Shown: in pieces, positions 3,614 to 47,108 of the stretch
Numbering within the stretch: the first letter of the stretch is position 1
Layout of the letters: every line of letters starts with the position of its first letter
Notes under the pieces: generated by a model
The model's input: the letters and a program-made list of their open reading frames with translations, nothing else
Database searches by the model: none
Told to the model about the DNA's origin: nothing
Position numbers and translations under genes: made by a program
DNA from: Alphaproteobacteria bacterium
GTDB taxonomy: Bacteria; Pseudomonadota; Alphaproteobacteria; JABAAW01
NCBI GenBank assembly: GCA_965216625.1
Contig: OZ244186.1
Span: forward strand, 1,347,594 to 1,411,593
Direction of reading: 5' to 3'
Length of the DNA stretch: 64,000 nt

Positions 3614-3765
3614 GAGGCTACGCATATCGCGCTACGCGCGAAATGCGTAGAAGGCGCTTACGCGCCCCGCTGACGCGGGGTCTTTTGCGGGGGGACTGCG
3701 TCCCCCCACACCCCCCATGCGCAAAACTCGCTGCGCCTACGGCTCGCTCGTCTTGCGTTTCCATC
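3614..3765. repeat. Mosaic palindromic intergenic repeat, copy 1 (REP/RIME-like)
   Basis: It contains three modules that recur elsewhere: ctacgcat...atgcgtag, ccccgctgacgcgggg and ggggggactgcgtcccccc/catgcgcaaaac. Copies lie at about 21620, 30510-31000, 31940-32500, 46575-47100 and 49655-50235. Confidence 0.8.
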
Positions 3766-3859
3766 GATACTCAAGTCCCGTTTTTGTAGCAAGGGGCAGT
3801 CCCGTACCCCCCTGCTTCCCTAAATTCACACAAAACAACCCGCAAATCAACCTCTTTAT

Positions 3860-7433: not shown

Positions 7434-9011
7434 ATGGCACAAGAAACGGCAGAAGTTTCTACGGATGTTTCTTCGGAGCGTCGTCGTGGTGGCGGTCGAG
7501 AGGGTCGTCGTGCGCTCCGTGCGCAAGCGGCGGTTGATCGGCGTGACACGGCTGCGGCGTATATCAAGCGTGGCATGCCTGTCTACAACTACTTCAGCGA
7601 GGAGCAGATCGACCGCATTTGCGACAACGGCGCGAAGATTCTGAAGGACATCGGCTTGGAGTTTCGTGAGGATGAGGAATCGCTCGCCTTGTGGAGGCAA
7701 GCGGGAGCTAAGGTGGAGGGTGAGCGCGTTCGCTGCGACGAATCCACGCTGTTGGATATCGTCAAGAGCGTGCCTTCTCAGTTCACGCTGCATGCGCGCA
7801 ATCCGAAACGCTCGGTACAGATCGGCGGAGATGCGATGGTGTTTTTGCCTACTTATGGACCTCCGTTTGTGCGCTCGCTGAAGGAGGGACGACGCTATGC
7901 GACGATCGAGGACTTTCGCAATTTTTCAAAGTTGACCTACTTATCGCCGGCGCTGCACCACAACGGCGGCACGCTGTGCGAGCCTACCGATCTTCCCGTC
8001 AACAAGCGGCACTTGGAGATGCTCTACAGCCACGTGCGCTATTCGGACAAGGGCTTTCTCGGCTCTGTGACGGCGCCTGAGCGAGCGCAAGATTCCGTCG
8101 ACTTTGCCAAAATCATCTTCGGCGAAGAGTTCACCGACAACAACGCTGTTATCAGCGCGATCATCAATGTCAACTCGCCGCTCGTCTTCGACAACACGAT
8201 GACGGGCGCACTGAAGGTCTATGCGCGCGCGAACCAGCCTTGCATCGTCTCGCCTTTCATCTTGTCGGGAGCCATGGGACCCGTCACCGTGGCAGGCACG
8301 CTTTCGCAAATCTACGCCGAGAGTCTGCTGGGCGCAGCTCTCGTACAGCTCTACCGCAAGGGAGCGCCGCACATCATGGGAACATTTGCGACCTCGCTCT
8401 CGATGCTCTCAGGCGCGCCTTGCTTTGGGACTGCCGAATCCAGCATGGTGCAGCTCGGCTGTGGGCAGATTGCGCGCAGGTTGGGCTTTCCGTTGCGCTC
8501 TAGCGGTGCTTTGTGTGGCTCTAAAATCATGGACGCGCAGGCAGCTTACGAATCGGCGATCTCTATGCAAACGAATCTGTTTGCGGGCAACAATGTCGTC
8601 ATGCACACGGCGGGATGGCTGGAGGGAGGCTTAGTGATGGACTACGAAAAATTCGTGTTAGACGCAGACCAAGCCATGGCTTTCGTCAGGTTGGCTACTC
8701 CTCCTGATACGGACGAGAACCAACTGGCTTTCGATGCGTTGCAAGAGGTCGGACCTGGCGGACACTACTTGGGCTGCGCGCACACGCAAGCCAACTTCGA
8801 GAGCGCCTTCCACAACTCGCCCTTCGTTGACAACGAGTCCTTCGAGCGATGGAAAGCCGAGGGAGAAAAGGACATGGTTGCGCGCGCTGCGGACAAGGTC
8901 GAGCGTATGTTGAACGAGTACGAGGCGCCGCCGATCGACGAGGCACTCGATGAAAACCTGCTCGAATTCATCAAGCGGCGTAAGGAGTCTATGCCTGATT
9001 CATGGATTTAG
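7434..9011 (+). CDS. MttB-family (trimethylamine/glycine betaine) methyltransferase, non-pyrrolysine type
   Basis: 525 aa with MttB superfamily features (COG5598), including GLEFREDEE. An RBS ggagg sits upstream of the ATG at 7434. Confidence 0.8.
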   Translation: MAQETAEVSTDVSSERRRGGGREGRRALRAQAAVDRRDTAAAYIKRGMPVYNYFSEEQIDRICDNGAKILKDIGLEFREDEESLALWRQAGAKVEGERVRCDESTLLDIVKSVPSQFTLHARNPKRSVQIGGDAMVFLPTYGPPFVRSLKEGRRYATIEDFRNFSKLTYLSPALHHNGGTLCEPTDLPVNKRHLEMLYSHVRYSDKGFLGSVTAPERAQDSVDFAKIIFGEEFTDNNAVISAIINVNSPLVFDNTMTGALKVYARANQPCIVSPFILSGAMGPVTVAGTLSQIYAESLLGAALVQLYRKGAPHIMGTFATSLSMLSGAPCFGTAESSMVQLGCGQIARRLGFPLRSSGALCGSKIMDAQAAYESAISMQTNLFAGNNVVMHTAGWLEGGLVMDYEKFVLDADQAMAFVRLATPPDTDENQLAFDALQEVGPGGHYLGCAHTQANFESAFHNSPFVDNESFERWKAEGEKDMVARAADKVERMLNEYEAPPIDEALDENLLEFIKRRKESMPDSWI

Positions 9012-9026
9012 TGGGTATAGTCGGGC

Positions 9027-9512
9027 TTGCTTGCTTGTTTTGTCTTTCTGCGCGCGGAGGGTTGTAGCCAAAAAGACGAGATGGCGGATATTTCTTCTCA
9101 GAAGGATTTATGGCGACGTTTGTGTGCTTCGTTGCGCGCGTGGGTTATCGATCATTGGCGCGGAGATTTGTCGCTTATCGAGTCTTTTTGGATCAACTGT
9201 TTTTTCGTCAACTTGGGAGCGGGCATTCTGTTGCGTCGCCTTGCGCTTTCGCCTGCGGGGGTGATGGTGTTCGGCGTGTTATCGGTGGGAGTTTCTGTGT
9301 GGCAGTTGGTGGGCTTGTGGCGATCGGCGCACAAGAACAGCAGGAAGCAGCCGATTTGGTCGGCGATTGTGAAGGGAGTGTGCGTGATGAATGTCGTCGT
9401 CTTTGGGATGGTGGTGCTGGCGGCGTTGTTCGGAGGATTCGGAGAGGGAGACATCAACTTGCCCGTAGATTTACCCGCGCAGAGCATACCGAGCAGATTT
9501 CTCAAAACTTGA
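9027..9512 (+). CDS. Hypothetical small inner-membrane protein
   Basis: ORF with 3-4 predicted hydrophobic helices (GAGILLRRLALSPAGVMVFGVLSVGVSVWQLVGLW, CVMNVVVFGMVVLAALFGG). The true start is possibly the M at about 9080. No recognisable family. Confidence 0.3.
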   Translation: MLACFVFLRAEGCSQKDEMADISSQKDLWRRLCASLRAWVIDHWRGDLSLIESFWINCFFVNLGAGILLRRLALSPAGVMVFGVLSVGVSVWQLVGLWRSAHKNSRKQPIWSAIVKGVCVMNVVVFGMVVLAALFGGFGEGDINLPVDLPAQSIPSRFLKT

Positions 9513-9545
9513 CAAAAATTTGACCAAGATTTGACGAAAATTTGA
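9483..9545 (+). promoter_or_regulatory. Four tandem ~12-nt repeats (atttgacNaaNa) upstream of the OMP gene
   Basis: The sequence atttgaccaaga atttgacgaaaa atttgacgaaga atttgcgaaaac is visible directly. It contains repeated TTGAC, which is -35-like. Confidence 0.4.
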
Positions 9546-9756
9546 CGAAGATTTGCGAAAACTTTTTTTAACACCGAGCCTTGACGAGCAGAGAAGGAGG
9601 TGCTAGAAAGTCCTCTTGTTGCGCTTAAGGGCTGAAGTGAGGGGGTTTGGAGCGGGGGGGCTAGAGCAAACAAATAGGGGGGAAACATGGGGGGACAATC
9701 GTTTTTTACAAACAACAACAACACACTAACAACATCACACTAAGGAGTTTCCTCTG

Positions 9757-10539
9757 ATGAGAAAAGGAATTATTGTTTCCCTCGCCGCGCTGGCGATGGG
9801 TTTGACGGGCTTGTATGCGTCTCCTGCGAAGGGGCTGCAGTTTGGCTTTAATGCGGGTTACACTTCGGTGGGCCTTAATTTGCATGGCATGGGCGGAGAG
9901 TTTCTGTTCGGCTTTCAGGGCAAGGACGAGCATCGTCCGCAAGGCTCGGTGATACGCATCGGCTTGGCGGGTGCTTCAGGAGAGGGCGAATCCGACCTCA
10001 CTGCAGCAACATGGGACGGAGTGAGCTATGACGTTTACACAGCAGCAGCTCAGGCTCAAGTGACTGCTGCCATCACAGCGTTGGCGACATTGGGGGCGAC
10101 AGGTGCTGCTCTAGCAGCAGGCACTGCGGCAATACAAGCTGCAGCAGCAGCTCCAGGGGAAGCTTATGGTATTGCCGATAAAGCTTCGGCATCCGCTGCG
10201 AAGGGCAAGGGTACGGCCTTCCTCGTTTCGGCTGCTTACGAGTATGTCTTGCCGCAAGGTGCGCCGGGGCTTGGCTTCATCGTCGGTGGCGAGCTGTATG
10301 TTTCGCAAGGCGGCTTTGCAAGTTCTAATCCTGCCTATCCTAGCGTCTCGACCGATGGAGGCATCGGAGGGGGCGGTGTTGTTGGCATCAGCTACTACAC
10401 GAAGAATGGCTTCAACCTCTCGATCAAGACGGGAGTTGGCATCGTCAGTCCTGGAGAAGTGACTTTGCTTGGAGTGACAGTCGTGCCTGAGTCGGTGCTT
10501 TATGTCAGCCCGACTTTCTCGATTGGCTTCATTCACTAG
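9757..10539 (+). CDS. Outer-membrane beta-barrel protein (OmpA-like/porin-like), Ala-rich
   Basis: Signal peptide MRKGIIVSLAALAMGLTGLYASPA. The body alternates hydrophobic residues and is Gly/Tyr-rich. The C-terminus is TFSIGFIH. Confidence 0.5.
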   Translation: MRKGIIVSLAALAMGLTGLYASPAKGLQFGFNAGYTSVGLNLHGMGGEFLFGFQGKDEHRPQGSVIRIGLAGASGEGESDLTAATWDGVSYDVYTAAAQAQVTAAITALATLGATGAALAAGTAAIQAAAAAPGEAYGIADKASASAAKGKGTAFLVSAAYEYVLPQGAPGLGFIVGGELYVSQGGFASSNPAYPSVSTDGGIGGGGVVGISYYTKNGFNLSIKTGVGIVSPGEVTLLGVTVVPESVLYVSPTFSIGFIH

Positions 10540-10556
10540 TTCTAATCAACAAAAAT

Positions 10557-10594
10557 GAGGACGCGGGCTTTCGTTGCTCGCGTCCTCTTTTTTT
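10557..10594 (+). terminator. Rho-independent terminator after the OMP gene
   Basis: Stem gaggacgcg...cgcgtcctc followed by a T-run of 7. Confidence 0.7.
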
Positions 10595-10635
10595 GCTTGC
10601 GGATTGGTGCAGAGAAGGGTTAGGATTGGTGTGTT

Positions 10636-10926
10636 ATGCGTTCTTTGATCGAGTTAGTGTTGTTGCTGTTGCGTTTGTACGGATGGTGTCTGATTGCGGT
10701 TGCGATCATGAGTTGGATGTTGGCGTTTGGGGTTATCAACGCTTACTCGCCTGTGGTGCGCTCGATTTTGGAGATTTTGTATCGATTGACCGAGCCGTTA
10801 TTGCGTCCGATAAGGCGAGTGATTCCGTCGGTTGCGGGGGTTGATTTCTCGCCGGTGATTGCTCTGCTGGGGTTGTGGTTTGTCGGGCAGTTGATCAGGG
10901 AGTATGCGTTTAAGCTGTTGCTTTGA
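10636..10926 (+). CDS. yggT: YggT-family membrane protein
   Basis: 96 aa with two TM helices. The YggT/Ycf19-like segment is RLTEPLLRPIRRVIP...DFSPVIALL. Confidence 0.75.
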   Translation: MRSLIELVLLLLRLYGWCLIAVAIMSWMLAFGVINAYSPVVRSILEILYRLTEPLLRPIRRVIPSVAGVDFSPVIALLGLWFVGQLIREYAFKLLL

Positions 10927-10960
10927 GCCATAAGAGAAGAGAGAGAGGGAGTAGGGGCGA

Positions 10961-12322
10961 GTGACTGAAAAGAAGCAGAGGATTGATCCTATTCGGCGGG
11001 TACGCGGGATGCAGGATTTTCTACCTGAGCGCGCGGCGGGGATGCGGAGGATTGCGGGGATTGCGGAGGATGTTGCGAGGCTGTATGGGTTTGAGCGGAT
11101 AGAGATTCCTATATTAGAGAGGGCGAGTTTGTATCGGAGGTCGTTGGGATTGGGGAGCGATGTTGTGATGAAGGAGATGTATGCGTTTCAGGATAAGAAA
11201 GATAAAAATGACAATAGCGAGGAGTTGTGTTTGCGTCCTGAGGGGACGGCGGGGGTGATGCGGATGTTGATCGAGGAGGGATTGACGCAGACGCTACCGC
11301 AGAGATGGTTTTACGAGGGGGCGATGTTTCGCAGGGAAAGACCTCAAAAAGGTAGGTTTCGGCAATTTCATCAGTGCGGAATAGAGTTGCTACATAAGTC
11401 CGCGCGTTATGTCTACAATATAGACAAAGAATTAGAGATTGTTGCTTGCGCTTGGTATTTTCTTAGGGAGTTAAGGTTAACAGATACGATTGAGCTTAAA
11501 GTTAATTGGCTTGGGAACGCAGAGGAGAGGATGCTTTATGGTGAAACTTTAAAAAAGCATTTTCAACGATATGCGAAGGATGAATCTCTTTCGGATGAGA
11601 GTATAGAGCGATTGAAACGCAATCCTTTACGCATCCTTGATTCTAAAGACCCTCTCGATCAGGAGGCAATAAGTAAAGTTCCTCCATTGGAATTAAATAA
11701 AGTTTCACAAGATAAATTTAATGATGTTCAAGAATCTCTTAAAGTTTTAGGTATTTCATTTTCTTACGACTCAAGGCTTGTGCGTGGGTTAGATTATTAC
11801 AACGGGTTTGTTTTTGAATTCGTAGAAAAAGACACGGAACGAGCGCAGGCGACGATATTGGCGGGAGGACAATACGATGGGTTATGCGAGGAGTTAGGAG
11901 GAAAAAATCCTGTTGCTGCTATCGGATGGGCTGCGGGGTTGGAGCGTTTATTGGAACTGCAGGAAAACAAAAAAAATCAAAGCGTTAGCTCTCATATAAC
12001 AAAAATGTGTGTATTAGGGGATGATACTTTTAGAGGAGTTGAGTTTGGAGGCGAACTTGTTGATTTAATTGAGGACATAAGAAATAAATTTTATAAAAAC
12101 AATGATCTTTCTAGTGTTGCTTTTTTTACAGCTTCTTCTTACGAAGAGGCAGAAAAAACAAAAGCAAATTGGATTGTTATTATTTGTAGATTAGGGTTGG
12201 AAAGTTATTATTTCCGTATAATAAACGCATCTAATGGGAAAGAACTTGATGCAAATATTGAGCCGCATGAGTTTGATCAATGGTTGGAATCTAGTTTTGG
12301 TGATGAGGACGAAGACTTATAA
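10961..12322 (+). CDS. hisS: Histidine--tRNA ligase; the 5' half is G+T-rich and the 3' half is A+T-rich
   Basis: Class II aaRS motifs are present (RGMQDFLPE, LRPEGTA, FRRERPQKGRFRQFHQ, GGQYDGL). Composition shifts abruptly at about 11400. Confidence 0.9.
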   Translation: MTEKKQRIDPIRRVRGMQDFLPERAAGMRRIAGIAEDVARLYGFERIEIPILERASLYRRSLGLGSDVVMKEMYAFQDKKDKNDNSEELCLRPEGTAGVMRMLIEEGLTQTLPQRWFYEGAMFRRERPQKGRFRQFHQCGIELLHKSARYVYNIDKELEIVACAWYFLRELRLTDTIELKVNWLGNAEERMLYGETLKKHFQRYAKDESLSDESIERLKRNPLRILDSKDPLDQEAISKVPPLELNKVSQDKFNDVQESLKVLGISFSYDSRLVRGLDYYNGFVFEFVEKDTERAQATILAGGQYDGLCEELGGKNPVAAIGWAAGLERLLELQENKKNQSVSSHITKMCVLGDDTFRGVEFGGELVDLIEDIRNKFYKNNDLSSVAFFTASSYEEAEKTKANWIVIICRLGLESYYFRIINASNGKELDANIEPHEFDQWLESSFGDEDEDL

Positions 12323-12325
12323 CCC

Positions 12326-12533
12326 CCTGATAGAAAAAACAATACTATCGGCATGGTGGGCGTTCGTATGATGCATGTAGAGGCGACATGGCACTTGGCA
12401 GATTAAAACATGCGCATAGGCACGACGATAGGCAGTATGGTCTGCCAAGTTGGGGATAAATTCCCCTGCCATGCCGAATCTACATGCATCATCTAAACAT
12501 CTCCCGCGTCGATAGAATTTTCTTTCTATCAGC
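12326..12533. mobile_element. MITE-like ~208-bp palindromic element with imperfect terminal inverted repeats
   Basis: The left arm is cctgatagaaaaaacaatactatcggcatgg...gatgatgcatgtagaggcgacatggcacttggcagat. The right arm is its near reverse complement (atctgccaagttggggataaattcccctgccatgcc...ttctttctatcag). It contains the recurrent ggggataaattcccc hairpin and has no ORF. Confidence 0.55.
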
Positions 12534-12596
12534 AAGAAAAAAATGGGTTAGCGTTATTGTCTTGTTTCTTTTATCGTAATAAGTTACACTAATACC

Positions 12597-13772
12597 ATGA
12601 GTGCACAAGACGAGTTCTGGCGTGAAAGATTCGCAACCTCCCTCCATCAAGAGGAAACAACCCAACTCGCCCTAAATAACCCCAAAATCCCCAACCCCGA
12701 ACGCATAACCCTCGCAAAAACACTCGCATCCCTAACCCCCCTCTGTAACGAAATCCGCTCCTACAATAACCTAACCCAACAAAAAATCTCCGCACAAAAC
12801 ATCCTCGCCGAAGAACCCGACGCAGATCTAGATCTATCTAAAGAACTCAAAGCACTCGCCTCAGAAGAAATTATAACCCTAGAAAAACAACGCGCCTCAA
12901 TCCTAGATAAAATCCAAAACCTCATGCTAGACTCATCAGAAGAAGAAATAAATACCGCCATCCTAGAAATAAGACCAGGTACAGGCGGCGAGGAAGCCGC
13001 CCTCTTCGCAGCCGACCTCCTAACTATGTACCAACGATACTCCGCAAATAATTCCTACAAGTTCGAGACTATCTCCATACAACAAACCCAACAAGGCGGT
13101 ATCAAAGAAGCCATCGCTACCATCGAAGGACCCCGCGCCTTCACAAGACTCTCCGTAGAATCAGGCGTCCATCGCGTCCAACGAATTCCCGAAACCGAAA
13201 CACAAGGCAGGATCCATACCTCCGCCGCAACCGTCGCAATCCTCCCCCAAACATCCAATATACAACACCCCCTCCGCGAACAAGACCTCCGAACCGAAAC
13301 CTTCCGCGCGCAAGGCGCAGGAGGACAACACGTAAATACAACCGACTCCGCCGTGCGTATAACCCATATACCCTCAGGACAAGTCGTCCAATGCCAAGAC
13401 GAAAAATCTCAACACCGAAACCGCGAAAAAGCACTCAAAGTCCTAACCGCACGAGTGCAACAACATATCCAAGAATCACAAAATGCCGAACGCTCCGCAA
13501 CACGCAACGCACAAATAGGTAGCGGAGACCGCTCAGAGCGAATCCGTACCTATAACTTTCCCCAAAACAGAATCACCGACCACCGCATCGCGCTAACCAT
13601 CTACAAACTAGACCGCATCATGCAAGGCGACGGGCTAGAACTGCTCCTCAATCCTCTCGAAGCCGCCCGAAAATCCGAGCGTATAACACAACTCCAAGAA
13701 CAAAACACAATCCCCAAAACAAACCCCTCATCCCCAAACAAGCAAACAAACAAAAAAAATGCCTCTTCTTGA
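12597..13772 (+). CDS. prfA: Peptide chain release factor 1 with N- and C-terminal extensions
   Basis: GGQHVN motif and RIHTSAATVAILP. The low-complexity tail is NTIPKTNPSSPNKQTNKKNASS. Confidence 0.9.
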   Translation: MSAQDEFWRERFATSLHQEETTQLALNNPKIPNPERITLAKTLASLTPLCNEIRSYNNLTQQKISAQNILAEEPDADLDLSKELKALASEEIITLEKQRASILDKIQNLMLDSSEEEINTAILEIRPGTGGEEAALFAADLLTMYQRYSANNSYKFETISIQQTQQGGIKEAIATIEGPRAFTRLSVESGVHRVQRIPETETQGRIHTSAATVAILPQTSNIQHPLREQDLRTETFRAQGAGGQHVNTTDSAVRITHIPSGQVVQCQDEKSQHRNREKALKVLTARVQQHIQESQNAERSATRNAQIGSGDRSERIRTYNFPQNRITDHRIALTIYKLDRIMQGDGLELLLNPLEAARKSERITQLQEQNTIPKTNPSSPNKQTNKKNASS

Positions 13773-14691
13773 GATTCATAAGCTCCGCGAACTCTATAAA
13801 AATTGGCTACTTCGTCTGAAAGACGCCGACCTCGAAGACCCCCAAGCAGAACTCAACGCGCTATGGAGAACAACAACAAACGATCCCCTACCCTTACTCG
13901 CCTCCTCTGAAATTACCCCCCTCCTCGCACAACGCCTGACGCATCTCGTCGAACGCCGAGCCGCGCGCGAACCCCTCGCCAGAATCACCAACCATCGCGA
14001 GTTCGCCTCCCTCCCCTTCCGTCTTAACAAAGCCTGCCTCATTCCCCGAGCCGACAGCGAAACGCTACTAGAAGCCGTCCTCCACCTCATCGCCTCGAAG
14101 CACCCCGTCCGCAGCATCCGAGAACTCGGTTGCGGTAGCGGATGCATCGTCCTCGCCCTCGCCGTAGACATGTTCGACAAAACTCACCGACCCCGCCTAC
14201 AAGCCTGCGACACCTCCGCCCAAGCCCTCATAGCCGCCAGACTTAACGCACAAAGCCTACAAAAAAAACTGCCCGTCCAGTTCTTCCTCGAAAACTGGAG
14301 CGATAAAAAACATCGCAGAAGAGATAACGGAAAACATCGCAGAAGAGATAGCAGAAGAAAACACCTCGACCTGCTCTTCGCGAACCCCCCCTACATTCGT
14401 CGCCGCGAGCGCATCACCCTATCGCGCGAAGTTGCCCGCTTCGATCCTCCGCTCGCGCTAGACGGCGGCTTCGATGGCATGTACTCCTTTCGCCAGATCC
14501 TTCTCTACGCGCAACAAACGCTACGCTGCGGAGGCTTTCTGCTACTCGAACACGCTCCGCACCAAACGCGCGTTCTCAAACCCCTCGCGCGACGAAAACA
14601 ATTCCGATACCTCCGAACGCTCCGCGACCTAGCAGGCAGAGACAGAGTCTCGGTTCTCAGGAAGCATTCTTCGCAAAAAGTCCTTGCTTGA
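13759..14691 (+). CDS. prmC: Release factor glutamine N5-methyltransferase (HemK/PrmC)
   Basis: NPPY motif (LLFANPPYI) and GCGSGCIVLALA. It overlaps the prfA stop (operon). It carries an in-frame tandem duplication giving KKHRRRDNGKHRRRDSRRKH. Confidence 0.85.
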   Translation: MPLLEIHKLRELYKNWLLRLKDADLEDPQAELNALWRTTTNDPLPLLASSEITPLLAQRLTHLVERRAAREPLARITNHREFASLPFRLNKACLIPRADSETLLEAVLHLIASKHPVRSIRELGCGSGCIVLALAVDMFDKTHRPRLQACDTSAQALIAARLNAQSLQKKLPVQFFLENWSDKKHRRRDNGKHRRRDSRRKHLDLLFANPPYIRRRERITLSREVARFDPPLALDGGFDGMYSFRQILLYAQQTLRCGGFLLLEHAPHQTRVLKPLARRKQFRYLRTLRDLAGRDRVSVLRKHSSQKVLA

Positions 14692-14759
14692 TGCCTGCCG
14701 CCTCGCCTATCCTTGTTTTAAGAATTACCCCCTCCCTTTGTACGAGCCCATAAATATCC

Positions 14760-15395
14760 ATGTATACCCAACGAAGACCCTCCTCCCGCCCGCCCCGTAA
14801 CGGCGGCTACTCCCAACGCGGACGCGGTCCCTCCTCTTCAGGACGCAACTTTGAATCGAATGGTCCTGCGAACTTTCGCGTGCGCGGCAAACCCATCCAA
14901 ATTCACGACAAGTATGTGCAGCTCGCCCGCGACTCGGCTGCCAACGGAGACAAGATTCTGACAGAAGGTCTTCTTCAGCACGCAGAGCATTACTTGCGCA
15001 TGCAAACCCTCGAGCGAGACAGAAGCGCGCCCGATCGCTCCGTAGAACGAGGCAACGATTCTTCCGAAGAGGGCGATGGCGGCTATCGTCGTTTTGCGCC
15101 ACGCGCAGGCGGCACGCGCCGTCGCTGGGCGGTTTCGCCTGAGGGACCTGCGCGCCAAGAAGCACAACAAGAATCGCAAAACCAAGAATCGCAGAACGAT
15201 GGCTACGCCTCATCTTCCGAGCCGACCAGCGTCGGCGGAGGTAGCGAGAACATCGACCAATCCTCAGATGCTATCGAAGAGCAGGCGCAAGTCGAGCAAC
15301 GACGTCCCCTCTCTGAGGGAGGGCTTGCCACCAACGATGCTCCCGACAATGCGAGCGGAGACGGAAGCTATGGGTCGGATGCCTCCTACGAGTGA
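14760..15395 (+). CDS. DUF4167-domain protein
   Basis: NFESNGPANFRVRGKPIQIHDKYVQLARDSAANGDKILTEGLLQHAEHY matches the alphaproteobacterial DUF4167 N-terminal signature. The C-terminus is acidic and low-complexity. Confidence 0.65.
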   Translation: MYTQRRPSSRPPRNGGYSQRGRGPSSSGRNFESNGPANFRVRGKPIQIHDKYVQLARDSAANGDKILTEGLLQHAEHYLRMQTLERDRSAPDRSVERGNDSSEEGDGGYRRFAPRAGGTRRRWAVSPEGPARQEAQQESQNQESQNDGYASSSEPTSVGGGSENIDQSSDAIEEQAQVEQRRPLSEGGLATNDAPDNASGDGSYGSDASYE

Positions 15396-15402
15396 AGGGT
15401 TG

Positions 15403-21517: not shown

Positions 21518-21589
21518 TGGGTACGGTTGGGATTGAACCAACGACTTCTGCCGTGTGAAGGCAACGCTCTACCGCTGAGCTACGCACCC
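21518..21589 (-). tRNA. tRNA-Val (anticodon CAC)
   Basis: Reverse complement GGGTGCGTAGCTCAGCGGTAGAGCGTTGCCTTCACACGGCAGAAGTCGTTGGTTCAATCCCAACCGTACCC. It folds as a cloverleaf with anticodon loop TTCACAC. Confidence 0.8.
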
Positions 21590-21617
21590 TTATCAGAATT
21601 TTTTCGGGGGAGGGGAG

Positions 21618-21775
21618 GTCGCTACAGGTAGCCTAGCCGATGGCGGGCGAAAGGTCAATTTACGAAACGCGCGTAGAAGGCGCTATCGCGCCCCGCTGAC
21701 GCGGGGTCTTCGTGGGGGGAATTTATCCCCCCACACCCCCCCGCGTGCTACGCACGCGATGTTTTGCGCCCGTAA
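21618..21775. repeat. Mosaic palindromic intergenic repeat, copy 2
   Basis: It shares gcgcgtagaaggcgctatcgcgccccgctgacgcggggtctt...ggggggaatttatcccccc with the other copies. Confidence 0.8.
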
Positions 21776-21795
21776 AGACTACCCACTCCCATCAT

Positions 21796-30476: not shown

Positions 30477-30509
30477 TGGCGACGCGCTATGGCGAGGCAG
30501 ACACGGGCT

Positions 30510-31000
30510 TTGTTGATTAGGTAACATACGCAAGACGAGCGAGCCTTAAGATTAGTTTTGGGCGAAGCGAGTTTTGCGCATGGGGGGGGGGGCGACGGGC
30601 TTTTTGTATTGACGGGCGGAAAACATCGCGTGCGTAGCACGCGGGGGGGTGTGGGGGGATAAATTCCCCCCACGAAGACCCCGCGTCAGCGGGGCGCGAT
30701 AGCGCCTTCTACGCACTCGCGCGAAGCGCGAGATGCGTAGCCTCTTATTCAAAAGCACGTTGCTTGCCTCGCGCAAGGGGAATTTATCCCCAAGCTGACT
30801 CGCAATGCGGTAGAGCGTTTTTAATTTTGCCTAGAATCTAGAGATAAAAAGAATCGCGCGGAGCGCGCCTCTTATTCAAAAGCGCGTTGCTTGCAACGCG
30901 CAAGGGGAATTTATCCCCAAGCTGACTCGTAACACGGTAGAGCGTCTTTAATTTTGCCTAGAATCTAGAGATAAAAAGAATCGCGCGGAGCGCGAAAAAA
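30510..31000. repeat. Array of mosaic palindromic repeats, including two tandem ~125-bp units (30733..30857 and 30858..30982)
   Basis: Directly visible. The units are cctcttattcaaaagcgcg...gcgcaaggggaatttatccccaagctgactcg(t/c)aa(c/t)(a/g)cggtagagcgt...ttgcctagaatctagagataaaaagaatcgcgcggagcgcg. Confidence 0.85.
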
Positions 31001-31082
31001 ATTGCTAGGCTACGCAACAAGTGCTAAAAATAGTATAGATGATTCGCACAAATACACAGATAGCCCAAGAAGGGCGGTAACG

Positions 31083-31655
31083 ATGACCGACTTCAATCAA
31101 TTGCCAAGCAACCTGCCTAAGCCAATAAATGACGGTGCCGCAGATCATCTGCTTGGGCTAAAACTGCCAGAAATTACTCTAACCTCGACTGATGACGAAA
31201 AAATCAATCTCGCAGAACTCAAGGGAAAGGTCGTGATATTTTGTTACCCGAAAACCGGCAGGGATGGTGTCACAATGCCAGAAGGATGGGATCAAATACC
31301 AGGCGCAAGAGGTTGCACGCCGCAAACTTGCTCCTACAGAGATAATTACCAAGAGATAAAACAGCTTGGCGCGAAAATCTTCGGGCTGAGCACACAGAAA
31401 ACCGATTACCAAAAAGAATTGGCAGATAGGCTAAATCTACCTTTTTCCATACTCAGCGACGAAAAAATGCAGCTGACTAAAGCTCTCTCTTTGCCAACGT
31501 TCGCCATAGACGATATGTTGTTACTCAAGCGTTGCGCAATGATTACAGAAAACGCCAAGATAATAGCTCTGAAGTATCCTGTCTTTCCTAGCAATAGCGA
31601 TGCTAGTTGGGTCATCGATTATCTAGCGCAAATACAATCTAGACTCGCGTCATAG
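31083..31655 (+). CDS. Peroxiredoxin-like (AhpC/TSA-Redoxin family) protein encoded in an A+T-rich segment
   Basis: VVIFCYPKTGRDGVTMPEGW...GCTPQTCSYRD is a thioredoxin-fold peroxiredoxin pattern. GC content is far below the neighbouring genes. Confidence 0.6.
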   Translation: MTDFNQLPSNLPKPINDGAADHLLGLKLPEITLTSTDDEKINLAELKGKVVIFCYPKTGRDGVTMPEGWDQIPGARGCTPQTCSYRDNYQEIKQLGAKIFGLSTQKTDYQKELADRLNLPFSILSDEKMQLTKALSLPTFAIDDMLLLKRCAMITENAKIIALKYPVFPSNSDASWVIDYLAQIQSRLAS

Positions 31656-31939
31656 CGCGAGACAAAGCCTTTCTGTCGCGCTCGCGCTTGTGCTTTTTAA
31701 AAGCACGCACTCGCGCGTCAGATTAAAAAAAACTGCACGAAGATGCTAGTAGCGGCGGCAGCAGCGATGGCAAGATTTCTGATGATCTCAGAGGCTTGGA
31801 CTAGACATTTCATACCTATATTATGAGACACACCTCCTGACAAATCATGCCGAAGTTTTTCCCCCTGTAAGGAGGCTGACTCTGTCGCTGTCTTCTGTGA
31901 GAGAGCGGGCAGAGTCTCGCGCCAACAACCTTGCGTCAC

Positions 31940-32500
31940 AAAAGCAGCTTGCCGTGTTACGAGTCAGCTTGGGGATAAATTCCCCTTGCGCGTTTCTGCG
32001 AAACGCGCTTTTGAATAAGAGGCGCACTTCGTGCGTTCTTTTTTCCTCTATCTTCTAGGCAAAATTAAAAACTCTCTACCGTGTTACGAGTCAGCTTGCG
32101 CACGCCTTCGGCGTGCGCTTTTGAATACGAGGCGCGCTACGCGCGATTCTTTTTATCTCTAGGACGAGGAAAACAATCTCGCCGTACCATGTTACGAGTC
32201 AGCTCGGGGATAAATTCCCCTTGCGCACGGCAAGCCGTGCGCTTTTGAATAAGAGGCTACGCATCTCGCGCTTCGCGCGAAATGCGTAGAAAAGCGCACT
32301 GCGTGCGCGAGGGGATAAATTCCCCCCGCTGACGCGGGGTCTTTTGCGAGGGATTACTCCCTCGCGCTCCCCGCGTGCTACGCACGCGATGTTTTGCATC
32401 CGTCAATATAAAAAGCGCGTCAAGACAAAAAGCCCGTCAAGACAAAAAGCCCGTCAAGACAAAAAGTCCGTTACGCATCCGTAGTTCTGCTACAATCCCC
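31940..32500. repeat. Array of the same mosaic repeats in the inverted orientation relative to 30510..31000, followed by three tandem 17-nt units gtcaagacaaaaagccc (32417..32467)
   Basis: The units cgctctaccgtgttacgagtcagcttggggataaattcccc..., gcttttgaataagagg and ccccgctgacgcgggg are reverse complements of those in the left array. Confidence 0.85.
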
Positions 32501-32507
32501 CCACCCC

Positions 32508-36633: not shown

Positions 36634-36755
36634 GGGACGGCAACGCCCTACTCTTCCACGCCACGAGGACGCAGTACCATCGGCGCAGGAGGCTTTCACG
36701 TTCGAGTTCGGAAAGGGATCGGGTGTTGAGCCCTCCGCTATGATCGCCGCCCCGT
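36634..36755 (-). rRNA. rrf: 5S rRNA
   Basis: Reverse complement ...GGCGGCGATCATAGCGGAGGGCTCAACACCCGATCCCTTTCCGAACTCGAACGTGAAAGCCTCCTGCGCCGATGGTACTGCGTCCTCGTGGCGTGGAAGAGTAGGGCGTTGCCGTCCC. Confidence 0.85.
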
Positions 36756-37018
36756 CACTGCACGGAAACAAATCATGGATTTTTTTCGACAAGTTTGTTT
36801 GTCGTTTTTGTTTTGAGAACGCTTTTCAATTTTTAGTAATTTCTGTCACAGCATTATCTATGCGCTGAGGCGCTGCTTGCGTTTTGTCGAAGCAAAGAGC
36901 GTTAAGGTCAATCGAGAGATTAGTACCGGTCGGCTCCACATGTTACCATGCTTCCACCTCCGGCCTATCGACGTGGTGTTCTTCCACGGCTCTGATAGCG
37001 ATATCTATTTTCGAGGTT

Positions 37019-37051
<33 letters not shown>

Positions 37052-37219
37052 AGACCGTACTTGGCTACCCGGCACTGCCACTGGCGTGACAACCGGTACA
37101 CTATAGGTACGTCCACTCCGGTCCTCTCGTACTAGGAGCAGCTACTCTCAGATATCGAACACCCACGGCAGATAGGGACCGAACTGTCTCACGACGTTCT
37201 AAACCCAACTCACGTACCA

Positions 37220-37270
<51 letters not shown>

Positions 37271-37326
37271 TGATGAGTCGACATCGAGGTGCCAAACACC
37301 CCCGTCGATGTGAACTCTTGGGGGGT

Positions 37327-37380
<54 letters not shown>

Positions 37381-37808
37381 TCGGGACCACCGGATCACTA
37401 TGACCGACTTTCGTCTCTGTTCGGCCCGTCGGCCTTACAGTCAGGCAGGCTTGTGCCATTGCGCTCATCGGCTGATTTCCGACCAGCCTGAGCCTACCAT
37501 TGCGCGCCTCCGTTACTCTTTGGGAGGCGACCGCCCCAGTCAAACTACCCACCACGCAGGGTTCCGGCTCCTCCACGGAGTCGGTTAGATGACAAATACA
37601 GCAAGGGTGGTATCTCAAGGTTGCCTCCACCTCGACTAGCGTCGAGGTTTCTCAGGCTCCCACCTATCCTGCACGTGATGCATCTGGCATCACTGCGAAG
37701 TTGTAGTAAAGGTGCACGGGGTCTTTCCGTCTAACCGTGGGAACTCCGCATTTTCACGGAGAGTTCAATTTCGCTGAGTCTGTGTTGGAGACAGTGGGGA
37801 GATCGTTG

Positions 37809-37897
<89 letters not shown>

Positions 37898-37974
37898 TTC
37901 AGGAGCTTTCACCCCATCCCTTAACCTTCCGGCACCGGGCAGGCGTCAGACCCTATACTTCGTCTTACGACTTT

Positions 37975-38007
<33 letters not shown>

Positions 38008-38493
38008 CCCCTGATTTCGTGCCCCCCGCGACGGCTTGCGCCGCTGCGGGGCCTCCTTTTCCCGAAGTTACGGAGGTAATTTGCCGAGTTCCTTCAACAC
38101 AGTTTTCTCACGCGCCTTGGTATGCTCAACCGATCCACCAGTGTCGGTTTAGGGTACGGTCTAAAGCTGGGGTTCTTTCCAGGAACGACTTCCCCTGCCT
38201 TCGCAATCCGATCAGCGAAGACAAGAAAGGTCATCCGTCACCTCCAGCAGGCTCAGGAATATTAACCTGATTCCCATCGTCTACGGCTTTCGCCCTCGAC
38301 TTAGGGGCCGGCTCACCCTACGCGGACGAGCCTTGCGTAGGAAACCTTGGATTCTCGGCGGGGGTGATTCTCACACCCCTTGACGCTACTCATGTCAGCA
38401 TTCTCACTTCCGATACCTCCACGACACCTTACGACGCCGCTTCACAGGCTTACGGAACGCTCCGCTACCGATGCAACAGAATCTGTCCGTCGT

Positions 38494-38998
38494 CAATTAA
38501 TCATCATTTAAATTGCGCTCCTATCCCTTCTATAAGCCAACTAGGGATGGAGTCAGAATCTCCATCCCCGTTAGCAATGTCAAATCGTTTTGACTAGTTC
38601 GCTCTTTTGCAAGCCCCATCCTCACAAGAATAAATTTGGGGAGACAAAGGGATGCCGAAAACATGACGAGGAATCGCCAGATAACCTGCTGGCGCATCAA
38701 TTGTGTCGGTACTGCCTCCAAAATAGATCCCGCCAGTGGTACATCCACCCAAGGCAAATATTCCCACAAGAGCCACAGCTACGATAAGAGATTTTTTCAT
38801 GTCATCCTCCTACAAGGATTGTTGAGAAACTGCCTCTCGCGCTCGTGCGCGGAGGCACTGCCTTATCGGCAGGTGGAGCGATGATAGTATGAAAAAAGGC
38901 TTTGACAACCTTTTTTGCTTTTCACCATCTCCTCCTCGTGTTTCTTTTTTCCCTTGAAGGAGGGACATGAAATTGACGACGCACAGATTCTGTTACAT
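38494..38998 (-). other. ~505-nt intervening sequence replacing 23S helix 45; long (~28 bp) closing inverted repeat
   Basis: The rRNA sense reads GAAGCTGCGGG|ATGTAACAGAATCTGTGCGTCGTCAATT...AATTGACGACGGACAGATTCTGTTGCAT|CGGTAGCGGAGCGTTCC. The flanks match E. coli positions about 1160-1190, where helix 45 IVSs are known. Confidence 0.75.
38594..38800 (-). CDS. Small lipoprotein (68 aa; ~48-aa mature peptide with a C-terminal Cys pair) encoded inside the 23S IVS, in the rRNA sense
   Basis: MKKSLIVAVALVGIFALGGC is a lipobox, followed by ...YSCEDGACKRAN. The RBS is aggagga. A conserved hairpin ccgcgcacgagcgcg lies upstream. It is A+T-richer than the flanking rRNA. Confidence 0.5.
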   Translation of the reverse strand: MKKSLIVAVALVGIFALGGCTTGGIYFGGSTDTIDAPAGYLAIPRHVFGIPLSPQIYSCEDGACKRAN

Positions 38999-39059
38999 CC
39001 CGCAGCTTCGGTATACGGCTTGAGCCCCGTTACATCTTCGACGCAGGAAGGCTTGATTA

Positions 39060-39123
<64 letters not shown>

Positions 39124-39680
39124 TGGCTTTCCCACATTCTTTCCCACTTAGCCGTAATTTAGGGACCTTAGCTGGCGGTCAGGGCTGTTTCCCTTTTGAC
39201 GACGGACCTTAGCACCCGCCGTCTGTCTGCCGTGCTGAATCCTACAGTATTCGGAGTTTGGTTAGGTTTGGTAAGGCTCGCGCCCCCCTAGCCCATCCAG
39301 TGCTCTACCCCTGCAGGAGATCACACGACGCACTACCTAAATAGTTTTCGCGGAGAACCAGCTATTTCCGAGTTTGATTGGCCTTTCACCCCTAGCCACA
39401 GATCATCCGAAGATTTTGCAACATCTAACGGTTCGGCCCTCCAATGCGTGTTACCGCATCTTCAGCCTGTCCATGGCTAGCTCACTCGGTTTCGGGTCTT
39501 ATACTACGAACTAACGCGCCCTTTTAAGACTCGCTTTCGCTACGCCTACGCCTCACGGCTTAAGCTTGCTCGTAACACAAAGTCGCTGACCCATTATGCA
39601 AAAGGTACGCGATCACCGCACGAAGCGGCTCTCGCAGGTTGTAGGCACTCGGTTTCAGGGACTCTTTCACTCCCCGCATT

Positions 39681-39726
<46 letters not shown>

Positions 39727-40613
39727 GTCGAGGAGTATTTAGGCTTGGAGGGTGGTCCCCCCACATTCAGGCAAGATGTCACGTGTCCCGCCCTACTCTA
39801 GAACAAATCATGCAGATTCGTGTACGGGGCTATCACCCTCTATGGCGCGTCGTTCCAGACGTCTTCCTCTTCAAGCATAATCAGCTACTGGCCTCTTCCG
39901 CGTTCGCTCGCCGCTACTAACGGAATCTCGGTTGATGTCTCTTCCTCCGGCTAATGAGATGTTTCAGTTCGCCGGGTTCGCTTCGCTGTACTTGCGTACA
40001 ACGATTCCCCACTAAGGGGAGGGTTTTCCCATTCGGATATTTTCGGATCACAGTGTGCTGGCAACTCCCCGAAACTTTTCGCAGCCTGCCACGTCCTTCA
40101 TCGCCTCTCGACGCCAAGGCATTCGCCAAGCGCCCTTTGCTACCTTTCGCTCTTTGCTGACAATTCGCAAGCAGCGCCTCAACTCATAGAGGGCTGCTGT
40201 TGACAGAAATTGTGCGTTCTTTCCGATTTCACAAAACTCCGTGCGCAACGCGCCGACAGAGCCAGAAAATCGAATTCTTACAAACGATGGACTTGTTCAA
40301 TAGTTCCCCCCGAAACGCCTCTCGTATTGCAAATACAAGCAGCGCGAAGCCCATAATAGCCGAGCCAGTACTAGAGCGCAAGAAAAAAAACACAAAAAAC
40401 GCATCAGAGATAAAAAAACACGCAAGCGAAAATTTTCCCATCCTCCCCTCTTTTGCTCCCTCTTTTTCTCTTTGTGCGCCTTGCCTCAAAGCACGCCTTG
40501 CGTAGAAAACGACGCTCTCATGTCAGCATTCTCACTTCCGATAACGCTTCTCATTCTTGCGGAACGCTCCGCTAGCGATGCAACAGAATCTGTCCGTCGT
40601 CAATTTTTTTCTT

Positions 40614-41030: not shown

Positions 41031-41057
41031 TACCCCACTCCCTATCCATTTAAGTCG

Positions 41058-46559: not shown

Positions 46560-46574
46560 TAATTGAGCGCAAGG

Positions 46575-47100: not shown

Positions 47101-47108
47101 AGCCCGCG

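What the first reader, a model, noticed from the sequence alone, without database searches (positions are those of the whole stretch)
10961..12322. hisS is compositionally chimeric: strongly G+T-rich, C-poor 5' half and A+T-rich 3' half
Up to about 11400 the codons are almost C-free (TTG, GGG, GAG, GTT). From about 11400 to the stop the gene is roughly 35% GC with A/T at third positions. The protein remains a recognisable HisS throughout. The switch is abrupt and intragenic. It suggests either a recombination junction with a foreign or divergent allele, or a hypermutation tract affecting both strands.
Basis: seen in the sequence. Interest (0 to 1): 0.55.

Follow-up and report, generated by a model that had tools for sequence, protein, structure and literature searches.

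The report
Hypervariable recombining tail of hisS
The essential histidyl-tRNA synthetase gene of this uncultured alphaproteobacterium has a conserved first third joined to an A+T-rich last two-thirds that differs by 20-45% between strains otherwise 97-100% identical, which is unusual for a housekeeping gene.

Summary
Third-position composition in hisS (10961-12322) steps at nt 11336 (support 11324-11339; 0 of 500 shuffles reach it), from G3 0.59/C3 0.06 to G3 0.20/A3+T3 0.70.

The step coincides with a similarity break. Three strains (L085, L082, L168) are 97-100% identical to the window over about 7 kb of flanks. One of them is also 96-100% identical over a further 22 kb. From about 11330-11390 to 12310 identity falls to 55-80%. 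Inside this tract the tree topology conflicts with the flanks (chi2=151). Nearest neighbours change block by block. Synonymous divergence rises 5-20 fold even in the catalytic motif 3 region, where dN/dS stays at 0.1-0.2. The C-terminal anticodon-binding-like domain evolves almost neutrally (dN/dS 0.5-1.1). A second species pair (L084/L169) shows the same pattern.

The gene is therefore a mosaic: a conserved backbone plus a recombining, hypervariable 3' cassette. It is not one recent foreign import, because every allele in the clade has the same A+T-rich 3' part.

The G+T-rich 5' part is not specific to hisS. It is the left arm of one of seven mirrored strand-skew domains in the window. These are centred on palindromic intergenic elements and are unexplained.

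The parts
10961..12322 (+). hisS CDS (histidyl-tRNA synthetase, 453 aa)
   Evidence: ORF. Pfam tRNA-synt_His matches residues 16-330 at E=1.8e-31. Foldseek top hits are all full-length HisRS structures.
10961..11335 (+). Conserved backbone part of hisS, codons 1-125 (motif 1, the LRPEGT histidine-binding motif, and motif 2 up to RERPQ). G3 0.59, C3 0.06.
   Evidence: for composition. p-distance over 10961-11270 is 0.03-0.04 to the conspecific strains L085/L082, 0.06 to L004 and 0.13-0.17 to other species. dN/dS is about 0.1.
11324..11339 (+). Compositional change point (best estimate nt 11336, codon 125), coinciding with the left edge of the divergent tract
   Evidence: for the change point. 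The first differences that separate the window from all other strains are at 11276/11278 (shared by three of the four strains), 11332, 11344, 11353 and 11362. Dense divergence starts at about 11387.
11336..12310 (+). Hypervariable, mosaic, A+T-rich tract (GC about 0.37, GC3 about 0.30)
   Evidence: Identity to strains that are 97-100% identical in the flanks is 55-89% here. Topological incongruence gives chi2=151, P=1.6e-33. Nearest neighbours shift block by block. The same pattern appears in the second species pair L084/L169.
11981..12319 (+). C-terminal domain (codons 341-453), anticodon-binding-like alpha/beta fold, evolving almost neutrally
   Evidence: No PF03129 hit at E<=0.01, and none precomputed for any of the clade proteins P0001-P0016. 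The AF2 model gives beta-alpha-beta-alpha-beta-beta-beta-alpha at pLDDT 60-85. dN/dS is 0.5-1.1. Amino-acid identity within the clade is 14-53%.
12327..12532 (.). Imperfect palindrome of about 206 nt (long hairpin) filling the hisS-prfA spacer. It is the right anchor of the variable tract and the centre of the strand-skew switch.
   Evidence: RNA fold -107.8 kcal/mol, z=-8.5. Inverted repeats. p-distance 0.10-0.12 to L085, L082 and L004 (86-88% BLAST identity including the 17-nt indel). Positionally equivalent inverted repeats occur in L001 and L084. No Rfam match.
12452..12468 (.). 17-nt mini-hairpin GGGGATAAATTCCCCTG at the apex of the palindrome, a precise insertion/deletion between strains
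   Evidence: Present in the window and L004, absent from L085 and L082. The 15-nt core has 9 exact copies in the window against 0.1 expected.
9012..11335 (.). Left arm of the skew domain: + strand G+T-rich (small ORF, OMP-like gene, yggT, hisS 5' part)
   Evidence: Conserved in L084, L002, L004 and L085.
12597..15350 (.). Right arm of the skew domain: + strand A+C-rich although prfA, prmC and the DUF4167 gene are all on the + strand
   Evidence: Conserved in relatives.

Best explanation
hisS here is a mosaic of two segments with different evolutionary regimes, and the compositional step marks their junction.

Codons 1-125 belong to the species backbone. They are near-identical among strains, under strong purifying selection, and carry the local G+T strand bias of a 3-kb skew arm.

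From codon ~126 to about 10 nt before the stop codon lies a cassette-like tract encoding the end of motif 2, the insertion domain, motif 3 and the C-terminal domain. It exists as several deeply diverged alleles. These alleles are exchanged and reshuffled by homologous recombination within and between species of this clade. Crossovers fall in the conserved 5' third of the gene on one side and in the conserved spacer palindrome/prfA on the other.

Shown here: the step, its coincidence with the similarity break, the phylogenetic incongruence and block mosaicism, preserved purifying selection on the catalytic pieces, near-neutral evolution of the C-terminal domain, and replication in a second species.

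Inferred: the alleles persist because recombination cannot homogenise so divergent a tract, and possibly because selection favours diversity. The tract is A+T-rich because its silent sites sit at the genome's A+T-biased mutational equilibrium, like repeat-free intergenic DNA at GC 0.33-0.48. Whatever keeps silent sites G+C-rich elsewhere (biased gene conversion or selection) does not act inside it.
For: The change point at 11336 has a 15-nt support interval.

p-distances between the window and L085/L082 are 0.02-0.03 in the flanks, 0.19 over 11400-11980 and 0.36-0.40 over 11981-12322. The last two equal the between-species distances.

L168 is a fourth conspecific strain, with flanks 97-100% identical and the tract 55-69% identical. 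L166, from the same genome as L085, is 96-100% identical to the window over 22 kb, and no other coding tract there behaves like this one.

Informative sites for window/L085/L083 split 193:20:9 outside the tract and 90:109:80 inside it. In 12000-12149 they split 34:9:8 in favour of (window,L083). The window/L004/L084 triplet also flips inside the tract.

By protein, P0010 is 99% identical to the window in residues 1-140 but 55% in 141-340, where it is 71% identical to P0011. Nearest neighbours change every 90-nt block.

Between conspecific strains, dS is 0.08-0.09 in codons 1-125 and 0.43-2.0 in the catalytic blocks 126-170 and 271-340, where dN/dS stays at 0.14-0.19.

The second species pair L084/L169 comes from one sample. 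Its flanks are 99-100% identical and its tract 57-77%.

All alleles share the composition gradient. Intergenic GC is given.
Against: All relatives are metagenome assemblies. Where strains co-occur, consensus contigs could be chimeric inside a variable tract, which would exaggerate the block mosaicism. It would not create the divergence itself.

Only about 29 kb of the 1.9-Mb genome could be compared with a conspecific strain, so how exceptional the tract is genome-wide is unknown.

No selective agent is identified. dN/dS never clearly exceeds 1, so diversifying selection is not shown.

The explanation for the A+T richness is an inference and was not tested. The nearby hypervariable part of the OMP-like gene (about 10000-10150) is not A+T-rich, so hypervariability alone does not give low GC.
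Confidence: 0.72

Rival explanations
1. Local hypermutation in place. The DNA next to the spacer palindrome mutates tens of times faster, for example through error-prone repair of breaks at the palindrome. This drives the 3' part of hisS to A+T richness and high divergence without any allele exchange.
For: The tract abuts a long palindrome that is the centre of a strand-skew switch. GC3 falls further toward the palindrome, from 0.38 to 0.16-0.26. Distances among alleles are roughly star-like in the middle part, 0.19-0.25. The C-terminal domain has dN/dS of 0.5-1.1.
Against: Informative sites significantly favour alternative topologies, whereas saturation would support all three equally. Allele types, including shared indels, are shared across species boundaries, as with P0010/P0011. 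The effect is one-sided: prfA starts 65 nt beyond the palindrome and is 97-99% identical between the same strains. The tract ends about 10 nt before the stop codon, not at the palindrome. L003 has no spacer or palindrome yet still has the A+T dip in the hisS 3' part.
Confidence: 0.1
2. A single recent horizontal transfer. This genome alone replaced its hisS 3' part with DNA from a low-GC foreign donor.
For: An abrupt GC3 step at an intragenic point. A+T-rich DNA is typical of acquired segments, such as the restriction-modification genes at 60053-61355 with GC 0.40.
Against: Every clade member has the same 5'-G3-rich, 3'-A+T-rich structure. The middle part is as close to ordinary alphaproteobacterial HisRS as the N-terminal part, 47% each. 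The closest alleles of the tract all come from the same clade.
Confidence: 0.03
3. No recombination. Composition simply tracks protein constraint, with weakly constrained codons drifting to A+T and strongly constrained ones keeping G-ending codons. The divergence between strains is an artefact of metagenome assembly or binning.
For: GC3 and amino-acid conservation fall together along the gene. L082 comes from a 2x-coverage contig with a frameshift, and the L004 copy is frameshifted.
Against: The tract was recovered as an intact ORF in six assemblies of four samples plus an NCBI MAG, several on contigs of 0.08-1.6 Mb at 7-117x coverage. Silent-site divergence is raised even in the strongly constrained motif 3 block. 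A conservation-linked codon-bias effect is not known to move GC3 from 0.6 to 0.2 (own knowledge).
Confidence: 0.08
4. Programmed diversification, either by a diversity-generating retroelement or by gene conversion from silent cassettes as in pilE/pilS or Anaplasma msp2.
For: A sharply bounded variable 3' region within a conserved gene.
Against: No second copy of the tract exists at the DNA or protein level in the 64-kb window. The differences include many indels and all base types over about 1 kb, whereas retroelement targets are short and vary only at template adenines (own knowledge). Purifying selection on the catalytic blocks is intact.
Confidence: 0.03

Closest known systems
Mosaic essential genes made by interspecies homologous recombination (pbp2x/pbp2b of Streptococcus pneumoniae, penA of Neisseria); from own knowledge
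   Same: An essential housekeeping gene carries sharply bounded blocks 15-40% divergent from the rest of the species. They are imported by homologous recombination anchored in conserved flanks, and the reading frame and catalytic motifs are kept.
   Different: In those genes the selective agent (beta-lactams) is known and the blocks are recent. Here the agent is unknown. The alleles are old, A+T-rich and shared across species. One whole domain evolves almost neutrally.
gnd next to the O-antigen (rfb) cluster of E. coli/Salmonella, a housekeeping gene made hyperpolymorphic by linkage to a locus under diversifying selection; from own knowledge
   Same: A housekeeping enzyme gene has far more allelic divergence and intragenic recombination than the genome average.
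   Different: The hisS tract is separated from the nearest variable surface-protein segment (about 10000-10150) by about 1.2 kb of 97-100% identical sequence. Hitch-hiking therefore does not explain it.
3'-end replacement of icd by prophage e14/phage 21 in E. coli; from own knowledge
   Same: Only the 3' end of a housekeeping gene is replaced by a divergent version, and the gene stays functional.
   Different: No integrase, island or leftover duplicate 3' fragment follows hisS. Only a 274-nt spacer lies before prfA. The replaced part is about 1 kb rather than about 0.15 kb.
Lateral transfer and co-evolution of HisRS with tRNA-His identity in Alphaproteobacteria (Ardell and Andersson 2006; Wang, Sobral and Williams 2007); from own knowledge, not checked here
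   Same: An alphaproteobacterial HisRS with an unusual evolutionary history.
   Different: Those cases are whole-gene events deep in the class. Here the mosaicism is intragenic and at strain level.
Break repair at chromosomal palindromes (SbcCD cleavage, RecBCD resection, convergent repair synthesis; PMC4752480, PMC4125073) and strand-coordinated mutation clusters on resected ends in yeast (own knowledge). Relevant to the skew arms only.
   Same: The polarity matches. On each side of the palindrome the strand whose 3' end points to the centre is G+T-rich. That is the strand exposed as a 3' tail after resection and the leading strand of converging repair forks.
   Different: No evolutionary imprint of this kind on base composition has been described, as far as two literature searches show. 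Nothing here demonstrates that breaks occur.

Membership tests
Class IIa histidyl-tRNA synthetase (HisRS) | Class II catalytic core with motifs 2 and 3 and the histidine-binding motifs | tested here: met
   PF13393 matches residues 16-330 at E=1.8e-31, and PF00587 also matches. LRPEGTAG, FRRERPQKGRFRQFHQ and GGQYDGL...AIGWAAGLERL are invariant or nearly invariant in the clade alignment. Foldseek top 50 hits are all HisRS.
Class IIa histidyl-tRNA synthetase (HisRS) | C-terminal anticodon-binding domain (Pfam PF03129, HGTP_anticodon) | tested here: inconclusive
   No PF03129 hit at E<=0.01 and no BLAST similarity to outgroup C-terminal domains. The AF2 model gives the expected beta-alpha-beta-alpha-beta-beta-beta-alpha order at pLDDT 60-85, and Foldseek alignments span the full length of HisRS structures. 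The fold is probably retained, but the sequence signature is lost.
HisZ (HisRS paralogue, regulatory subunit of ATP phosphoribosyltransferase) | No C-terminal domain, degenerate aminoacylation motifs, partnered with a short-form hisG | tested here: not met
   The protein has a 113-residue C-terminal domain and intact motifs 2 and 3. No hisG lies nearby; the neighbours are yggT and prfA.
Mosaic gene formed by homologous recombination | Sharp change of similarity along the gene between otherwise near-identical genomes | tested here: met
Mosaic gene formed by homologous recombination | Statistically supported conflict of tree topology between segments | tested here: met
   (chi2=151, P=1.6e-33; alternative topologies favoured inside the tract)..
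Mosaic gene formed by homologous recombination | An identified donor lineage | tested here: inconclusive
   The best partners per block are other members of the same clade (L083, L001, L082), at p=0.07-0.3. No near-identical donor was found.
Locus under balancing or diversifying selection | dN/dS above 1, or allele-frequency evidence | tested here: not met
   The maximum block dN/dS is 1.08-1.13, within noise. Most blocks are 0.1-0.9. No population frequency data were available.
Diversity-generating retroelement target | Template repeat plus reverse transcriptase nearby, and variation limited to template adenines | tested here: not met
   No second copy of the tract in the window. Variation includes indels and all substitution types. 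The rest of the genome was not available.
Island or prophage integration with 3'-end replacement | Integrase or island downstream and a duplicated partial gene end | tested here: not met
   A 274-nt spacer and then prfA follow hisS. No duplicate fragment was found.
REP/BIME/REPIN-type intergenic palindromic repeats (for the elements at the skew centres) | Short GC-rich hairpin units in many intergenic copies, often as inverted pairs | tested here: met
   Seven exact copies of an 18-nt core lie in five intergenic regions, three of them as inverted pairs. The 15-nt hairpin has 9 exact copies.
REP/BIME/REPIN-type intergenic palindromic repeats (for the elements at the skew centres) | An associated RAYT (TnpA-REP) transposase gene | not tested
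   Only 64 kb of the genome is available, and no search for it was made.

The most novel reading that the evidence does not exclude
The intergenic palindromes of this clade are chronic break-and-repair sites. Repair imprints a mirrored, distance-decaying strand bias on about 2 kb of DNA on each side, whichever way the genes point. The same sites are entry points for foreign or divergent DNA. Examples are the hisS 3' cassette at 12.4 kb, the presence or absence of the redoxin gene at 31 kb, and the restriction-modification genes at 60 kb. On this reading the hisS chimera is one visible product of a previously undescribed way in which small palindromic repeats shape bacterial genome composition and variability. 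The persistence of deeply diverged HisRS tails may additionally reflect an antagonist, such as a phage or toxin, that targets HisRS.
Probability: 0.2. Interest if true: 0.85.

Novelty: new variant of a known kind. Interest (0 to 1): 0.62.

Why it matters
Aminoacyl-tRNA synthetases are textbook conserved genes and are used as phylogenetic markers. A HisRS whose last two-thirds is as different between 98%-identical co-occurring strains as between species would mislead marker-based strain and species typing.

It also raises two questions. What keeps deeply diverged alleles of an essential enzyme in one population? Is the anticodon-binding domain still needed in this lineage?

The tract offers a natural test of what maintains high GC at silent sites, because one gene holds two silent-site equilibria (GC3 0.6 and 0.3) side by side.

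The mirrored strand-skew domains around palindromic repeats, if general in the 1.9-Mb genome, would be a new kind of local mutational landscape in bacteria.

Tried and rejected
A scan of JGI metagenome contigs with the clade alignment found only distant HisRS, at most 47% identity, and no new alleles.

Exact-protein look-ups of the window's own HisS and of rpmJ (50313-50438) found nothing, so the window's genome is not in the gene-position index.

Cluster look-ups returned no names or accessions. A literature search for the MAG accessions found nothing. The organism is therefore known only as an uncultured alphaproteobacterium related to MAGs bin96p and bin27s.

Rank correlation of N-part against middle-part scores over the outgroups was uninformative. 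The listed outgroups were pre-selected for nearly equal total score, which forces a negative correlation. Only the mean identities, 47% against 47%, were used.

Substitutions were polarised using the window, a conspecific strain and an outgroup, to look for an ongoing strand-asymmetric mutation spectrum in the skew arms. In the right arms, G>A and T>C run at about twice the per-site rate of C>T and A>G, and C>A at five times G>T (P=0.001). That is the expected direction. In the left arms (n=88) there is no asymmetry. The result is inconclusive.

The spacer palindrome has no Rfam match. No silent cassette or template repeat exists in the window.

Transcription-coupled mutation was rejected as the cause of the skew arms. 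Genes pointing away from a centre (prfA, prmC, gltX, rpmJ, 48489-49643) have A+C-rich coding strands, the opposite of that model.

Replication origin or terminus was also rejected. There are seven switches in 64 kb, all of the same polarity.
Full report
**The observation**

hisS is the ORF 10961..12322 on the + strand, 453 aa. In 150-nt blocks, GC3 runs 0.60, 0.64, 0.58, then 0.38, 0.28, 0.32, 0.38, 0.16, 0.26. G3 falls from 0.48-0.58 to 0.08-0.28, and C3 stays at 0.04-0.12 throughout. A likelihood change-point analysis on third positions places one step at codon 125, nt 11336. The 2-lnL support interval is only 11324-11339. The gain is 32.9 against a maximum of 13.4 in 500 shuffles. The C-poverty is common to both halves. 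What changes is G3 to A3/T3.

**Identity of the gene**

Pfam finds the HisRS catalytic domain at residues 16-330 but no anticodon-binding domain (PF03129), even at E<=0.01. In a search of 5.8 billion proteins, the sixteen closest hits (P0001-P0016) all lack a precomputed PF03129 hit. Most ordinary alphaproteobacterial HisRS among the more distant hits carry it, and most align only to the first 70-80% of the query. An AlphaFold model built on ten clade sequences is poor in the N-terminal third. It gives the C-terminal 100 residues a beta-alpha-beta-alpha-beta-beta-beta-alpha order at pLDDT 60-85. Foldseek aligns the whole model to full-length HisRS structures. Motif 2, the histidine-binding motifs and motif 3 are intact. 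This is therefore a real HisRS, not a HisZ, with a sequence-degenerate C-terminal domain.

**Relatives**

Synteny is conserved in all relatives fetched: MTTB, small ORF, OMP-like gene, yggT, hisS, prfA, prmC, DUF4167. All of them have the same G3-rich 5' part and A+T-rich 3' part of hisS. This holds even for species whose flanks differ from the window by about 20%, and for a sister clade (L003) at about 36-41%. The composition contrast is therefore an old, maintained property of the gene in this clade. It is not the footprint of one import into this genome.

**The similarity break**

Sliding identity shows that L085 and L082 are 97-100% identical to the window over 8050-11300 and 12400-15400, and L004 about 90%. 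Identity collapses to 0.60-0.89 (L085, L082) and 0.55-0.68 (L004) between about 11350 and 12400. A fourth strain, L168, shows the same: flanks 97-100%, tract 55-69%.

L085's genome is conspecific over a further 22 kb (L166, 96-100%), and L004's genome is a sister at about 90% (L167). In those 22 kb no coding region behaves like hisS 3'.

p-distances make the point compactly. For the window/L085/L082 trio, flanks are 0.02-0.03, hisS 10961-11270 is 0.03-0.06, 11400-11980 is 0.19-0.21, and 11981-12322 is 0.36-0.40. The last two equal the distances to different species.

The first differences that set the window apart from the other strains are at 11276/11278 (shared by three of the four strains), 11332, 11344, 11353 and 11362. 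Dense divergence starts near 11387. It ends at 12310-12318, just before the stop codon. The compositional change point (11336) thus coincides with the left edge of the divergent tract.

**Recombination or hypermutation**

Informative sites in the window/L085/L083 triplet split 193:20:9 for (window,L085) outside the tract and 90:109:80 inside it (chi2=151, P=1.6e-33). In 12000-12149 they favour (window,L083) by 34:9:8. In the window/L004/L084 triplet the tract favours (window,L084) two- to three-fold, although the flanks favour (window,L004). Saturation would give equal support to all three topologies, not a flip.

At the protein level, P0010 is 99% identical to the window in residues 1-140 but 55% in 141-340. 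There it groups at 71%, with shared indels, with P0011, whose N-part is only 90% identical. The nearest neighbour of each allele changes from one 90-nt block to the next.

Between conspecific strains, dS is 0.08-0.09 in codons 1-125 but 0.43-2.0 in the catalytic blocks 126-170 and 271-340, while dN/dS there stays at 0.14-0.19. The insertion domain has dN/dS 0.16-0.52 and the C-terminal domain 0.5-1.1.

prfA begins 65 nt beyond the spacer palindrome and is 97-99% identical between the same strains. A DNA-level hot zone around the palindrome therefore cannot be the cause. I conclude that the tract is a set of old, diverged alleles exchanged and reshuffled by homologous recombination. Crossovers fall in the conserved 5' third and in the conserved spacer/prfA.

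The pattern is replicated in another species. L084 and L169 come from one sample and are 99-100% identical in the flanks. They are 57-77% identical in the hisS 3' tract and 71-86% identical in part of the OMP-like gene.

**Why the tract is A+T-rich (inference)**

Repeat-free intergenic spacers in the window have GC 0.33-0.48, against GC3 of 0.60-0.74 in ordinary genes. The tract has GC 0.37 and GC3 0.30, so it sits at the level of unconstrained DNA.

The simplest reading is that silent sites in the tract are at the A+T-biased mutational equilibrium. The force that keeps silent sites G+C-rich elsewhere, either GC-biased gene conversion during recombination among similar alleles or selection, does not operate inside a tract too diverged to form heteroduplex. 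I could not test this. The variable part of the OMP-like gene is not A+T-rich, so hypervariability alone is not sufficient.

**Why the 5' half is G+T-rich**

This is not a property of hisS. The + strand is G+T-rich from about 9000 to the hisS tract and A+C-rich from 12597 to about 15350, although prfA, prmC and the DUF4167 gene are also on the + strand (prfA G3 0.05, C3 0.44).

Cumulative keto skew has seven sharp maxima in the window: 3701, 12308-12458, 21724, 30658, 46678-46964, 50149 and 59924-60017. All have + skew on the left and - skew on the right. The skew decays with distance: +0.22, +0.15, +0.07, +0.02 per 500 nt on the left and -0.36, -0.20, -0.15, -0.08 on the right. It is independent of gene direction.

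Five of the seven centres hold all seven copies of a GC-rich hairpin repeat (core CCGCTGACGCGGGGTCTT), three of them as inverted pairs. Exact copies of the 15-nt hairpin GGGGATAAATTCCCC lie within a few nt of three maxima (12452, 21716, 30655), and another lies about 80 nt from a fourth (47041).

The hisS-prfA centre is a 206-nt imperfect palindrome at 12327-12532 (fold z=-8.5). Its p-distance to L085, L082 and L004 is 0.10-0.12. Positionally equivalent inverted repeats occur in L001 and L084. Its 17-nt apex hairpin is a precise indel between strains.

The skew arms are conserved in species whose silent sites are saturated relative to the window, so they are actively maintained. L003 has hisS and prfA overlapping with no spacer, and it has only weak arms.

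The polarity is that expected for 3' tails after resection of a break at the palindrome, or for converging repair forks (PMC4752480). A test on polarised recent substitutions was consistent in the right arms and null in the left arms. I leave the arms as unexplained, with break repair as the leading idea. Two literature searches found no description of such local skew domains.

**Comparison with known cases**

The hisS tract works like the mosaic penicillin-binding-protein genes of pneumococci and Neisseria: blocks imported by homologous recombination into an essential gene. It differs in having no known selective agent, old trans-specific alleles, a neutral domain and a distinct base composition.

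It is not explained by hitch-hiking of the gnd/rfb type, because conserved DNA separates it from the variable OMP segment. It is not explained by prophage-borne 3'-end replacement of the icd/e14 type, because there is no island or duplicate. It is not explained by a retroelement or silent-cassette system, because none is present in the window.

**Verdict**

The hypermutation reading is not supported. The G+T bias belongs to a larger unexplained skew architecture.

**Caveats**

All comparison sequences are metagenome assemblies. Only about 29 kb could be compared between conspecific genomes. Diversifying selection is not demonstrated.

Noticed in passing
window 3701, 12308-12458, 21724, 30658, 46678-46964, 50149, 59924-60017 (centres), with arms of about 1.5-3.5 kb on each side: Seven mirrored strand-skew domains. 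The + strand is G+T-rich to the left and A+C-rich to the right of each centre. The skew decays with distance and is independent of gene orientation. It is conserved at the hisS locus in related species. It is unexplained; break repair at palindromes is one idea.
   Followed up: partly
window 3614-3859, 21588-21795, 30477-30760, 32300-32345, 46560-47108, 49644-50312: A family of GC-rich, terminator-like hairpin repeats (cores CCGCTGACGCGGGGTCTT and CGCAAGACGAGCGAGCC). They often form inverted pairs that make palindromes of 400-500 nt, resembling REPIN/BIME elements. They are found only in the intergenic regions that hold skew maxima.
   Followed up: partly
window 12452, 21716, 30655, 30777, 30904, 31971, 32206, 32311, 47041 (plus near-copies at 2105, 48450 and 48467): The 15-nt mini-hairpin GGGGATAAATTCCCC occurs 9 times exactly, against 0.1 expected. 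At 12452-12468 it is a precise 17-nt presence/absence difference between near-identical strains, which suggests a tiny mobile or recombinogenic unit.
   Followed up: partly
window 9757-10539, variable part about 10000-10150: An OMP-like gene without a Pfam hit has a short hypervariable segment: 75-90% identity to strains that are 97-100% identical around it. The equivalent gene is 71-86% identical between L084 and L169. This looks like a typical surface-protein variable region, and it is not A+T-rich.
   Followed up: partly
window 30477-32507: The ksgA-gltX spacer holds an A+T-rich redoxin gene (31002-31655, GC 0.44) flanked by repeat copies. The gene is 100% identical in the conspecific L166 and absent from the sister genome L167, where the spacer is only 350 nt. 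This is an insertion/deletion hot spot at a skew centre.
   Followed up: partly
window 60053-61355, next to tRNA-Gln at 61420-61491: An A+T-rich (GC 0.40) pair of genes, an N6/N4 DNA methylase and an unknown ORF, lies beside a tRNA gene. It is probably an acquired restriction-modification island.
   Followed up: no
window 36635-40149 and 38500-39000, 40500-41250: The 23S and 5S rRNA genes have no 16S gene within 1.3 kb upstream, so the rRNA genes appear unlinked. The 23S gene is about 330 nt longer than the model. Its segment near 38500-39000 is absent from L167 and variable in L166, which suggests an intervening sequence. The region upstream of 23S (40500-41250) is only 57-77% identical between strains.
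   Followed up: no
L003 3944-5299 and 5296-6432: In the sister clade (MAG bin27s) hisS and prfA overlap by 4 nt with no spacer palindrome, and the skew arms are weak. The A+T dip in the hisS 3' part persists.
   Followed up: partly
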